A stretch of DNA of 64,000 nucleotides from Aplysia californica (lineage: Eukaryota). The position numbers were made by a program, and so were the translations under genes. Shown in pieces: positions 29,801 to 32,961 of this stretch (the stretch's first letter is position 1; the number at the start of each line of letters is the position of its first letter). The notes under the pieces were generated by a model. The model had not been told where the DNA came from. It did not search any database and saw nothing but the letters and a program-made list of their open reading frames with translations. Where the stretch lies: the NCBI RefSeq assembly GCF_000002075.1, contig NW_004797749.1, positions 245,407 to 309,406 on the forward strand, in the 5' to 3' direction.

Positions 29801-30621
29801 ATATTAAAAATCCCAGGCCAACCACTGGTGATCTTTTATTTTATCAGTGTGTTTCCTCATCTGTTTTAGAACGCCAAACAAATCTGTGCACTACTCGTGG
29901 GAGCTGTCCTGATAGTGTCTGTCAGTGGGGCTGAGGACAACAAGCTAAAAAGGCGATTTTTCCTCGGAGGTAAGAACTTTCGTTTGTTTTCAGTGGGAAA
30001 TCCGGCTTTCAGTTTTGTGTAAGAAGGTGTCAGTGTATACTTAATCAACATGATGTTTTATTAAATGCAGTGCTTACGTGCATACTTCATGGGGTGATCT
30101 GTTAGCTTGGATCACGACTGACACGATTTTTAAAAGATTTGAGTTCCTATCCTATGTGTGTTATCGTAACTAGTAGTCACATGATTTGTCTCCTTAACTG
30201 GAGAGTGCCACACCGTGATATGAAAGAGGTGTTGCATTGGTGCTTTGCATTACGACAAGTTGATTGTAACTACGGCATTGTTTACATATCACATTATAAT
30301 ATTTGCCTGTGACGTCAAGCATAACCATTACTTTTATTTAGCAAAAAGCTAATGCTTTCCAGTTGATTACAAAAAAGAAAAACCTCGTAAGTCGCTTGAT
30401 AGTCAAACGAGTCCAAATTAATCATTTTGAGGTGTCTTGAAGTTAAAAAGTCTACGTATGAATACCCTCTAGGTATACCCAGAGAATAGCTCTCGCAACA
30501 TCTTACGTTTGCAGGCCGAAAAAGTTAATGACCGGTTCAGACAAGTTCTTCGAAACAAGTGTTTCAACAATCCTGTTCATACGAGATCTACTTTGTGGTA
30601 GAGATGTTGACGATGATGATA

Positions 30622-30699
<78 letters not shown>

Positions 30700-32961
30700 C
30701 CGACGTGGTAAAATCTCCGCAGGCACCAACAACTCCAATGGTGGAACAACCGGCAACCAGCCGACCCAAGGTCCAGCCACCATCATCTTGACCGCCCAGC
30801 AGGCTCAGGTCTTGCGATCTATCCTTGCGCTTCTTGGGAATGCAGGTAAATGGTTAATGATAATCATTATAATAATTATTGTATTTAATATAGCACATTG
30901 TGACTTTTTAATGGAAGTAAACGCTTGATATTTTACATGCAATTTCCTGTATATAAACTCGCACAAAAAAGTCAAGAAACAAAAATTCAAAGAAAGATAA
31001 CTGAAAAACAGGTCAGCTAAATTTATTCATTAAAAAAGATGCTTTCGACTCTCAAGATTCAGTGTGTACAATTTCAGATTTCAACAACAACGAGAAGTTC
31101 ATGTGAAAAGAGTTTAAATTACACCAGTCGGATTTCAAAAGTCTGAACAACCTTAGTTCTTTATGAACATTGTCAATAGTGGGTCCAGCCACCTCGTTTG
31201 ATCGAACACTCGATAGGGCATTGGCGCATGGGTAGGACATGCCTTCTGATAAATTGTTGCGGTACCTTCAGCCACTTCTGGACGAGGTAGCCCAAGTGTT
31301 GTTGACGGTTTTGTGCAGGAGGGTGGTTGTTCCTTGTCTGCAGGTTAATTTGGTCCCAAATGCTCTCTTTTGGGTTCCAATCTGGGACTGCAACCTGGCC
31401 AGTCCATACGGGGGACACTTCGCTGCTGTAGGCAGACAGATTGCCCTGTATATGGTACAGGTGGGTCCTGTGGAGAGCCGAGAAGCCTCCCCACACCAGA
31501 ACGGACCCTTCACCGTAGGGCGCCACCTGTTGGATGCAATCAGGCGCCTGTCGGGGTGCAGAAGGTCTGGTCCCACCGACGTCGTGTCCACTGTGAATGG
31601 CGAGTAGACCATGCCAGGCCAGCTGAGTTGCTTGGTGGGGCGTCGTTATTCATATACATGTATTTATTTATCTCTGCATGTTTTTTTTATTTACCTATAT
31701 TCTTTTAAATTTTCCTTCATTATTTACTCTTTTTAATTTGTTTACTCTTACGAAATTGTATTGCTTGCTGTGTGGTTTTTTCAGGTACCACCTTTAGCTT
31801 AATGTGTGACACAATGAAAGTTATGTTTGCTCAATTTTTAAAACTCTCGTTTAATTTTATCTAACATACATTTAGACCTACCTCTTTGTTGAAAGGGGAG
31901 GGGGGTATAATTGAGATAAGCATTGTACCTACATTCTACCAGCGACAGTATTAATAGCAACATGATCAAGAAGCAGTAGGAACAGACCACATTCTATCTC
32001 TTTTCACCACACATTCTGTCTTATTTTTTTGTCTCATACGTGTGATGAAAGTGGGAAGAGGGACGGTGGTACTGAAAAATGTTCTTTTTCGATGGGGTGG
32101 TTTGTCTGTATCTTTTTTTTTCGTTCTTAAAAAAATGGATTTACTTGCTCAACAATTTACAAACATGAATTATCACGCAGAAATACGAGATCTAAGACAG
32201 GTGTTGAGAATGGGGTTGGGGAAGGGGTAGCTCTCCGTCTTCGAAATGACTTAACTAACATTAGGAAGATAAGGTATGACCAAGGGTGGGAGCCAAACGT
32301 TTGTGGTGGTTGCTAGAACAGACTTTTTCTCTCAGGAAATTTACATAGGGTGAACTGCTACTTTTTCTTTCCTCATCCTTACTATTGTCATTTCCCCTCT
32401 ACTTCTTTTGTATGTTTGTCACTCTCTTGTGAACTAATATTCCGGGGTACCTTGACAGTCGAAGCAGACTGTGTGCTGTTGGGGCTACAGAGGTGAGCAG
32501 AGTAAGCCTGATTCTCCGTCTGGACTTCTCGGTTGACATCCACTCCTTGGCCCTCATATGACCTTATGAAGTTGTGAGCGCCGTAAAACCTTACTAAAAT
32601 TATATTAAACTCACGACACATAACAGGGAAACAAAGCCATGATATTTTATTATTTATTGCGTGAATAAAAATCATAGACTTCTGTTATGATATCTTAGAC
32701 TGTACACTCCGAAGCGCACCATTTCCACCCGCACGAATAATATAACGAGACTGGTGTTTTTCCCCTTTATTTTGGACGTAAGGGCGCAGCGAACTAAAGG
32801 CACATTTCGTAGCAAAGATGTTGTAGAGAGCGAAGAGCGGAGGCCATGACAGTGCGTCGTCCAGGATTACAAGTCATATATCTCTTAAGATAACCAAACC
32901 CTTCACATTTTAATATTCTCTTCCAGGAGCAGGAGCAGGATTACCACCACTAGGCAAATAA
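26879..32961 (+). CDS. Paralog B: small secreted peptide precursor, 86 aa, 4 exons. MNAKQICALLVGAVLIVSVSGAEDNKLKRRFFLGGTNNSNGGTTGNQPTQGPATIILTAQQAQVLRSILALLGNAGAGAGLPPLGK
   Basis: ATG 26879-26881 then gtaagt (duplicate copy at 27592-27594 across a 100-N gap); exon 2 29870-29969; exon 3 30723-30845 (tctccgcag...G|gtaaat, 123 nt); exon 4 32927-32961 (duplicate copy 33712-33746). Phases 0/1/1 are compatible and the exons are homologous to A and C. Confidence 0.82.
28840..29355 (-). mobile_element. tRNA-derived Deu/Nin-like SINE in intron 1 of B
   Basis: Inverted homologue of 16642-17135 at the same intronic site; the site is empty in C (about 49580). Confidence 0.72.
30612..30699. repeat. (GAT)n microsatellite in intron 2 of B
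   Basis: Direct reading. Confidence 0.95.
31170..31620 (-). mobile_element. Tc1/mariner transposase remnant in intron 3 of B
   Basis: GSVLVWGGFS, PDWNPKESIW (decayed SPDLNPIE) and a terminal RGGWTHY motif; internally deleted. Confidence 0.75.

What the first reader, a model, noticed from the sequence alone, without database searches (positions are those of the whole stretch)
29870..32961. Prepropeptide logic: signal peptide, acidic spacer, KR(R) cut, FFLG start, amphipathic helix, amide
Seen in sequence: a hydrophobic stretch ICALLVGAVL(L/I)VSV(CA/SG), a spacer AE(E/D)N(N/K/R)L, then KRR (A, B) or KRH (C), invariant FFLG, a helix LTAQQ(A/I)Q(L/V/Y)(L/F)R(S/M)I(L/I) with hydrophobic i/i+3/i+4 spacing, and terminal GK. 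The mature region has no Cys. Established: prohormone convertases cut after KR/RR, carboxypeptidase E removes the terminal K, and PAM converts the exposed G to an amide. Inference: mature products FFLG...AAPA-NH2 (A), FFLG...LPPL-NH2 (B) and HFFLG...AAPA-NH2 (C) from the regulated secretory pathway. Net charge is low, which argues against a classic cationic antimicrobial peptide and for a surface-active or structural role.
Basis: partly seen in the sequence, partly recalled or inferred. Interest (0 to 1): 0.75.

Follow-up and report, generated by a model that had tools for sequence, protein, structure and literature searches.

The report
Sea hare amidated peptide gene cluster
Three look-alike genes in the sea hare Aplysia, plus a fourth elsewhere on the scaffold, encode small proteins predicted to be secreted, cut and amidated into peptides ending in a water-repelling helix, likely surface-defence products made outside sensory neurons and belonging to no described family we could find.

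Summary
The window is Aplysia californica and holds three paralogous four-exon genes, A, B and C. Each encodes a hydrophobic leader, a 6-residue spacer, KR, a Cys-free low-complexity linker, one helix and Gly-Lys-stop. C is RefSeq LOC101847361. A fourth paralogue, D (LOC101847896), lies outside the window. A and B were not found as proteins.

- FFLG is not invariant: D has YSHH.
- The spacer is only -1 to -2.
- C and D carry a furin site (RLKR), so the regulated pathway is not implied.
- The cut in A and B may leave R-FFLG.
- Mature charge runs from +1 to +6, and C and D carry a Pro/Arg/Tyr patch.

The signal/pro exon is under purifying selection, and the mature exon diverges faster (Fisher p=0.007). 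No homologue outside Aplysia, no Pfam or PDB match and no paper was found. The RefSeq ids of C and D are absent from sensory-neuron tables. B exons 3-4 got no reads in 4 of 4 runs, so B's expression is unproven.

Verdict: an uncharacterised, lineage-restricted prepropeptide family of known architecture, most likely exocrine, surface-active or defence peptides.

The parts
26816..26881 (+). Copy B TATA box, 5'UTR and ATG-only exon 1; repeated at about 27529-27594 across a 100-N gap (563 of 566 identical, likely an assembly overlap)
29870..29969 (+). Copy B exon 2: hydrophobic leader, spacer, KRR, FFLG; phase 0 to phase 1
30603..30699 (+). (GAT)n microsatellite in intron 2, directly upstream of B exon 3; A has one at 14935-15012 and C has an N gap at the matching place
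30723..30845 (+). Copy B exon 3: Gly/Thr/Asn/Gln linker and amphipathic helix; acceptor inferred and weak, lying inside sequence that aligns to coding sequence of D
32927..32961 (+). Copy B exon 4 coding part ending Gly-Lys-stop; repeated at 33712-33746 across a 100-N gap; AATAAA 146 nt after the stop of the second copy
17864..17866 (-). Copy A start codon (exon 1), TATA box 64 nt upstream
15558..15657 (-). Copy A exon 2 (leader, spacer, KRR, FFLG)
14315..14425 (-). Copy A exon 3 (short linker and the most diverged helix); acceptor inferred
11815..11837 (-). Copy A exon 4 coding part ending Gly-Lys-stop; AATAAA 147 nt downstream
51034..51036 (-). Copy C start codon (exon 1), TATA box 64 nt upstream
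48927..49026 (-). Copy C exon 2 (leader, spacer, RLKR furin consensus, HFFLG)
47847..48110 (-). Copy C exon 3: Pro/Arg/Tyr patch, Pro/Thr/Asn linker with a 21-nt unit repeated 2.8 times, helix; its 5' edge runs into the N gap 48111-48272; matches RefSeq LOC101847361
45961..45983 (-). Copy C exon 4 coding part ending Gly-Lys-stop; AATAAA 147 nt downstream

Best explanation
This is a young tandem family of four Aplysia genes whose products are predicted to be secreted, cut after Lys-Arg and amidated, and likely act outside sensory neurons as surface-active or host-defence peptides that would sit on membranes or interfaces through a C-terminal amphipathic helix. Shown by sequence: four-exon genes with an ATG-only first exon, a conserved leader/spacer/KR exon, a faster-changing mature exon and a kept Gly-Lys-stop. 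Inferred steps: (1) signal peptidase cuts after residue 21 or 22. (2) Furin (C, D: RLKR) or PC1/PC2 (A, B: KRR) removes the 5-6-residue spacer. (3) CPD or CPE trims the Lys and PAM amidates. This gives 46, 54, 99 and 80 residues for A, B, C and D (monoisotopic 4904.6, 5256.8, 10086.2 and 8431.4 Da; +156.1 Da if A or B keeps the Arg; glycans possible). (4) The disordered N-terminal arm is the variable module: FFLG, or His/Tyr with a Pro/Arg/Tyr patch. The 16-20-residue helix is the shared anchor. Odds: real secreted precursor family about 0.9; processing as described about 0.75; exocrine surface or defence role about 0.45.
For: Leader, KR and Gly-Lys-stop in 4 of 4 paralogues. Exon 2 has 13 of 18 variable sites at third positions, against 9 of 30 in the last 33 codons of exon 3 (Fisher p=0.007). 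A conserved signal with a variable mature region is described for myticalins and is often reported for other AMPs and toxins (PMC5577615 passages). A's helix block differs from C's at 10 of 22 residues yet keeps 9 of 10 hydrophobic positions and gains no D/E/K/P. Only 1.6% of stop-free random-mutation simulations do both (criteria chosen after seeing the data). Hydrophobic moment of the best 11-mers is 0.52-0.64 (0.8-3.9% of shuffles reach it, uncorrected for choosing the window). AlphaFold helix at 107-122, rest of the mature part disordered. C and D ids are missing from both sensory-neuron tables of transcripts with TPM of 1 or more, while neighbouring ids are present (PMC7522570 supplements and methods passages). 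C and D hold a Pro/Arg/Tyr patch, the composition reported for the first myticalin. P0004, a near-identical full-length D sequence on a 391-nt contig filed as E. coli, can only be a spliced cDNA, which supports splicing of D (inference).
Against: No tissue of expression was found and no peptide has been detected. A and B have charges of only +1 and +2 and lack the Pro/Arg/Tyr patch. With a fixed 18-residue window the moment is modest (3-10% of shuffles reach it). The products (46-99 aa, mostly disordered) are longer than myticalin mature peptides (23-42 aa). B exons 3-4 had zero depth in 4 of 4 runs laid, including 14.8 million polyA reads, and no splice joints (tissues unknown). The B helix test was not significant (22% of simulations). 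The kappaB-like site near -435 is in A and B but not C, and 6-7% of shuffles have one. Absence from sensory neurons does not exclude other neurons.
Confidence: 0.45

Rival explanations
1. The products are structural, matrix or adhesive components (egg cordon, mucus, shell or radula matrix). The helix would drive self-assembly and the Tyr/His/Pro-rich arms would cross-link or bind metal.
For: Low charge, low complexity (Pro 7-18%, Gly 11-19%, plus Thr, Asn and Gln), an in-frame 21-nt repeat expansion in C, Tyr/His-rich N-terminus in D, N-glycosylation sequons in B, C and D. TATA promoter and tandem copies suggest high output (inference). Lineage restriction is usual for such proteins (own knowledge).
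Against: A kept terminal amidation signal and a convertase-removed spacer are typical of bioactive peptides rather than bulk matrix (own knowledge). There is no Cys, acidic tract or known matrix domain (Pfam). A and B lack the Tyr-rich part.
Confidence: 0.25
2. The products are signalling peptides (hormone, neuropeptide or water-borne pheromone) that would act on a receptor through the amidated C-terminus or the helix.
For: Classic prohormone marks. The amidated end is the same in A, C and D. Aplysia uses water-borne protein pheromones (PMC2700072 abstract start).
Against: No Pfam hormone or neuropeptide family matched at E up to 1 (whole proteins) or up to 10 (helix region), and no PDB sequence matched. 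No homologue was found in other taxa, whereas most neuropeptide families are shared across gastropods (own knowledge). The mature exon is the fast-evolving one, and B changes the amidated tail. C and D ids are absent from sensory-neuron tables. The motifs are absent from a nudipleuran prohormone supplement.
Confidence: 0.22
3. B (the copy in the finding) and perhaps A are decaying duplicates that lost the 5' half of exon 3 and are no longer spliced or expressed, so only C and D are functional.
For: A and B were not returned by protein searches that found C and D. B's acceptor has only 50% pyrimidines, follows a microsatellite, and lies in sequence that aligns to coding sequence of D. No reads on B exons 3-4 in 4 of 4 runs. 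pN/pS for exon 3 of A against B is 1.27.
Against: No stop or frameshift in the A or B models. TATA, ATG, splice donors and polyA signal are intact. B's 12-nt exon-4 insertion keeps the frame and Gly-Lys-stop, whereas only 6 of 100 non-coding indels (pairwise, not independent) are multiples of 3. A's helix changes are conservative. The runs laid may be from tissues where the whole family is silent: C and D were not tested on them.
Confidence: 0.2

Closest known systems
Myticalins (Mytilus linear, Cys-free AMPs; PMC5577615, PMC12294457, passages read)
   Same: Mollusc, lineage-restricted, clustered multigene family; conserved signal peptide with a variable Cys-free mature part; Lys-Arg site; predicted CPE/PAM amidation; a Pro/Arg/Tyr-rich stretch (here in C and D only).
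   Different: Myticalins run signal, cationic mature peptide (pI above 11, over 10% Arg, 23-42 aa), KR, anionic C-terminal extension, on 3 exons. Here the short spacer comes before KR, the product is C-terminal, 46-99 aa and weakly charged, it ends in a helix, and there are 4 exons. No myticalin came up in the homology searches.
Frog-skin AMP and conopeptide-type prepropeptides (recalled, no call)
   Same: Order of signal, acidic spacer, KR, mature peptide, Gly-Lys amide signal; conserved prepro exon and faster mature exon; aromatic/hydrophobic N-terminus (FFLG).
   Different: Spacer only 5-6 residues with net -1 to -2; products several times longer, mostly disordered and near neutral; no Cys framework; no Pfam match to such families.
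CRF/DH44/egg-laying-hormone and NPY/F helical hormones (recalled lead)
   Same: An amidated product with an amphipathic helix; the residues leading into the helix loosely recall the start of CRF-type peptides.
   Different: No Pfam or PDB hit for that stretch at E up to 10; no cleavage site in front of the motif; the conserved C-terminal halves of those hormones are missing.
RefSeq LOC101847361 and LOC101847896 (A. californica, uncharacterized)
   Same: LOC101847361 is copy C (100% over exon 3); LOC101847896 is paralogue D on a contig of the same length.
   Different: Named only 'uncharacterized'; copies A and B were not found in the protein collection.

Membership tests
Amidated prepropeptide (architecture class) | N-terminal signal peptide | tested here: met
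   Basic n-region, hydropathy 11-mer 2.7-3.1 and small residues at 19-22 in 4 of 4; AlphaFold helix 3-32. SignalP itself was not available.
Amidated prepropeptide (architecture class) | Conserved convertase site | tested here: met
   KR at 28-29 in 4 of 4; RX(K/R)R in 2 of 4 (C, D) (consensus from PMC6313938)
Amidated prepropeptide (architecture class) | C-terminal Gly-Lys amidation signal | tested here: met
   4 of 4, kept across B's insertion
Amidated prepropeptide (architecture class) | Processed, amidated peptide detected | not testable with these tools
   Needs mass spectrometry
Regulated-pathway neuropeptide | Expressed in neurons or endocrine cells | tested here: inconclusive
   C and D ids absent from buccal and pleural sensory-neuron tables; other cell types untested; A and B have no ids
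Myticalins | Mature peptide central, followed by KR and an anionic C-terminal extension | tested here: not met
   Mature part is C-terminal, with no anionic extension
Myticalins | Mature peptide over 10% Arg, strongly cationic | tested here: not met
   Net +1, +2, +4 and +6 over 46, 54, 99 and 80 aa
Myticalins | Three exons, coding in exons 2-3 | tested here: not met
   Four exons, ATG in exon 1
Classical cationic helical AMP | Amphipathic helix | tested here: met
   Moment 0.52-0.64 in the best 11-mers, 0.34-0.39 in a fixed 18-mer; AlphaFold helix
Classical cationic helical AMP | Several basic residues on the polar face | tested here: not met
   One Arg in the helix in all four
Classical cationic helical AMP | Antimicrobial activity | not testable with these tools
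   Bench assay needed
CRF/DH44/ELH or NPY/F hormones | Profile match to the family | tested here: not met
   No such Pfam family among 4 + 4 queries; 0 PDB matches in 3 searches

The most novel reading that the evidence does not exclude
This is the missing linear host-defence peptide family of sea hares. It would be a modular amidated peptide in which a swappable N-terminal arm (FFLG, His/Tyr, Pro/Arg/Tyr) is tethered by a disordered linker to a near-neutral membrane-anchoring helix. Such a design would work in seawater without relying on cationic charge, and it would be diversifying by duplication, exon truncation and sequence exchange between copies.
Probability: 0.2. Interest if true: 0.7.

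Novelty: new variant of a known kind. Interest (0 to 1): 0.4.

Why it matters
Aplysia is a heavily studied peptide model, yet this family carries only 'uncharacterized' labels (C, D) or was not found as protein at all (A, B). No paper in the library holds its ids or motifs. A survey of Aplysia immune genes states that defensins, mytilins and mytimicins were not identified (PMC9334734 passage), so an amidated, fast-evolving secreted cluster is a direct candidate for that gap. The predicted masses make it testable at once in tissue peptidomics. If it proves to be a matrix protein or pheromone, it is still a new lineage-specific family. The precursor architecture itself is textbook.

Tried and rejected
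No whole genome is held for this window, so the family count outside the window rests on protein records.

Homologue searches:
- Word-index searches returned only C and D: 2 of 8 and 2 of 9 candidates.
- The profile search of 1.84 billion representatives returned D plus 2 repetitive proteins, rejected as chance: 30 and 8 matched stretches, unrelated sequence.
- Metagenome contigs: 123 pattern matches, 0 confirmed. Plasmids: none.
- ESM Atlas: best feature score 0.78, TM 0.45 or less; no usable hit for D's mature part.
- Pfam: only sub-threshold hits at E 0.17 (DUF1686, DUF7180, SapB_2), rejected. PDB: 0 in 3 searches. Rfam: 0.
- No fold search was run, because the model is low-confidence (pLDDT 51, pTM 0.21).

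Other tests:
- Helix tetramer job: no answer, score 0.08, not evidence either way.
- Sequencing runs: no RNA holder listed. The lay started downstream of the microsatellite, so the exon 2-3 joint was not examined; reads fell only on intronic sequence, mostly a repeat.
- The CRF-like motif lead was rejected.
- The poly-Asp reading of the (GAT)n repeat was rejected: it is out of frame with the conserved helix, and A lacks a matching acceptor.
- The kappaB-like promoter site is not significant.

Literature:
- Supplements searched for ids or motifs with no hit for these genes: PMC8195618, PMC9334734 (file 1 cut when stored), PMC12871377, PMC12937505, PMC8735849.
- PMC11296145 supplements were unreadable. 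bioRxiv supplements and subscription papers on Aplysia glands were not visible, and a tissue report could be there.
- Earlier scan notes: nothing in 3 look-ups.
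Full report
Observation. The window is animal DNA with many gaps and repeats. Splicing by coordinates gives open four-exon models for A (minus strand, 17866 to 11815; 78 aa), B (plus, 27592 to 32961; 86 aa) and C (minus, 51036 to 45961), all with GT-AG introns. Exon 1 ends right after the ATG, 63-64 nt below a TATAAA box, and an AATAAA lies 146-147 nt after the stop. 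B's exon 1 and exon 4 each occur twice across 100-N gaps (563 of 566 and 634 of 635 aligned bases identical), most likely assembly overlaps. Of 36 open splice-bounded exon frames, the only ones with a hydrophobic stretch followed by a basic pair are the three exon 2s. None of 30 shuffled windows gave a hit (thresholds set with the target in view).

Identity. C's exon 3 matches Aplysia californica LOC101847361 at 100% and LOC101847896 at 64%. The latter (D) is a fourth paralogue outside the window, on a contig of the same length. RefSeq's C protein reads three residues more than my model at the exon 2-3 joint, next to the N gap, which suggests transcript support (inference). D's cluster also holds a near-identical full-length sequence on a 391-nt contig filed as E. 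coli. This can only be spliced Aplysia cDNA (inference). A and B share many 5-residue words with D yet were not returned in the 61-195 aa search, so they appear unannotated. Outside Aplysia nothing was found: a profile search of 1.84 billion representatives gave D and two repetitive chance hits. Pfam, PDB, the ESM Atlas, metagenome contigs and plasmids gave no usable match. Paper searches for five ids and six motifs found 0 papers.

Anatomy. All four precursors have a leader of 21-22 residues (best hydropathy 11-mer 2.7-3.1), a 6-residue spacer of net charge -1 or -2, KR at 28-29, no Cys after it, and Gly-Lys-stop. After KR come R-FFLG (A, B), H-FFLG (C) or H-YSHH (D), so FFLG is not a family constant. 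C and D read RLKR, the furin consensus given in PMC6313938. That paper places furin in the trans-Golgi, says PAM can act throughout the pathway, and says a terminal Gly-Lys needs no endoprotease (passages). The regulated pathway is therefore possible but not implied. PC2 cut one KRR substrate after KR (PMC9070308 passages), so A and B could retain the Arg. Predicted products are 46, 54, 99 and 80 residues with net charge +1, +2, +4 and +6. C and D begin with a Pro/Arg/Tyr patch that A and B lack. B's exon-3 acceptor lies in sequence that aligns to coding sequence of D, so A and B look like 5'-shortened versions of exon 3, or C and D gained the patch. AlphaFold on a three-sequence alignment is weak overall (pLDDT 51) but gives a single mature-region helix at 107-122 and disorder elsewhere. 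The helix is hydrophobic and moderately amphipathic. The best 11-mers score 0.52-0.64 (0.8-3.9% of shuffles, uncorrected), a fixed 18-mer scores 0.34-0.39 (3-10%), and it carries one Arg. N-glycosylation sequons exist in B, C and D.

Evolution. Flanking introns are 85-91% identical, so the copies are young. Exon 2 has 13 of 18 variable sites at third positions (p=0.0009), against 9 of 30 in the last 33 codons of exon 3 (Fisher p=0.007). pN/pS is 0.11-0.43 for exon 2 and 0.54-1.27 for exon 3. Against C, A's 22-residue helix block has 10 changes but keeps 9 of 10 hydrophobic positions and gains no D, E, K or P. Of stop-free random simulations 1.6% do both, a post-hoc test. For B the same test is not significant (22%), and some of B's differences from C are shared with D. 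Features are shared in a mosaic way: KRR in A and B, the helix end in A and C against B and D, the exon-4 tail in A, C and D. This hints at sequence exchange between copies (inference). Only 6 of 100 non-coding indels are multiples of three, while B's 12-nt exon-4 insertion and C's 21-nt repeat keep the frame.

Expression. I laid 4 of 24 listed runs on 30705-33100. None covered B exon 3 or exon 4, there were no joints, and reads fell on intronic sequence, mostly a repeat. One run was 14.8 million polyA reads. The tissues are unknown, and the exon 2-3 joint lay outside the stretch. In PMC7522570 (methods passages and supplement searches), the buccal and pleural sensory-neuron tables cover transcripts with TPM of at least 1 (12,002 of 28,786). 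They lack XP_005105637, -638 and -639 and the matching XM numbers, while neighbouring ids are present. So C and D are not sensory-neuron transcripts there. Where the family is made remains open.

Mechanism. Signal cleavage, removal of the short spacer at LKR or KRR, Lys trimming and amidation are inferred with good odds (about 0.75). For function I commit to an exocrine, surface-active or host-defence role (0.45). The grounds are tandem duplication, a conserved prepro exon with a faster mature exon, amidation, lineage restriction, absence from sensory neurons, and a helix that keeps its hydrophobic face. PMC5577615 (passages) describes that pattern and a Pro/Arg/Tyr composition for mussel myticalins. 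PMC9334734 (passages) reports no defensins, mytilins or mytimicins in Aplysia. Against it stand the low charge of A and B, the length and disorder of the products, and the lack of any tissue or activity data. Rivals are a structural or adhesive matrix role (0.25) and a hormone or pheromone (0.22). Separately, B or A may be a decaying copy (0.2).

Comparison and verdict. The family works like a frog-skin or conopeptide-type precursor in layout (recalled) and resembles myticalins in evolutionary pattern. It fails membership of myticalins (order of parts, charge, exon count), of classical cationic helical AMPs (one Arg) and of CRF or NPY-type hormones (no profile match). It is a real, uncharacterised Aplysia family with textbook processing signals and unusual products: a new variant of a known kind, interest 0.4. 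Papers seen: passages of PMC5577615, PMC12294457, PMC9070308, PMC6313938, PMC9334734, PMC7522570 and PMC7767343; supplement searches of PMC8195618, PMC7522570, PMC9334734, PMC12871377, PMC12937505 and PMC8735849; search listings and abstract starts only for the rest.

Noticed in passing
P0004 (NCBI OKV40229.1; not in the window): A protein filed as 'hypothetical, partial [Escherichia coli]' on a 391-nt contig is a spliced copy of Aplysia paralogue D with six extra in-frame residues before the Met: sea hare cDNA contaminating a bacterial assembly.
   Followed up: partly
window 26783-27348 vs 27496-28061; 32465-33102 vs 33203-33890; 43166-43909 vs 44112-44855; 57761-59409 vs 61148-62796: Near-identical duplications on either side of, or near, 100-N gaps; likely assembly overlaps or haplotypes rather than real tandem copies.
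   Followed up: partly
window 21549-23261 (-), 35916-39775 (-), 54221-55873 (-): Broken LINE elements; three tested frames hit Pfam RVT_1. 11882-12661 (+), inside A intron 3, looks like a LINE tail but gave no Pfam hit.
   Followed up: partly
window 31173-31649 (-): A 158-aa frame in B intron 3 that looks like a Tc1/mariner transposase remnant by eye (recalled motif); no Pfam hit at E 0.01.
   Followed up: partly
window 32352-32600: High-copy short repeat, abundant in all four runs laid and also in C intron 3 (47012-47262); probably a SINE.
   Followed up: no
window 1773-11902 vs 40654-46048: The 3' flanks of A and C match in blocks (79-97%), so A and C are a larger segmental duplication, with B inverted between them.
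   Followed up: partly
window about 26445 (+) and the matching A promoter: A kappaB-like 10-mer about 435 nt upstream of the ATG in A and B, altered in C; 6-7% of shuffles have one. About 600 nt of promoter are 85-89% identical in aligned bases among copies.
   Followed up: partly
C and D helix start (window about 47910, -): An N-glycosylation sequon sits at the start of the helix in C and D and is lost in A and B; B has a new one near its N-terminus.
   Followed up: no
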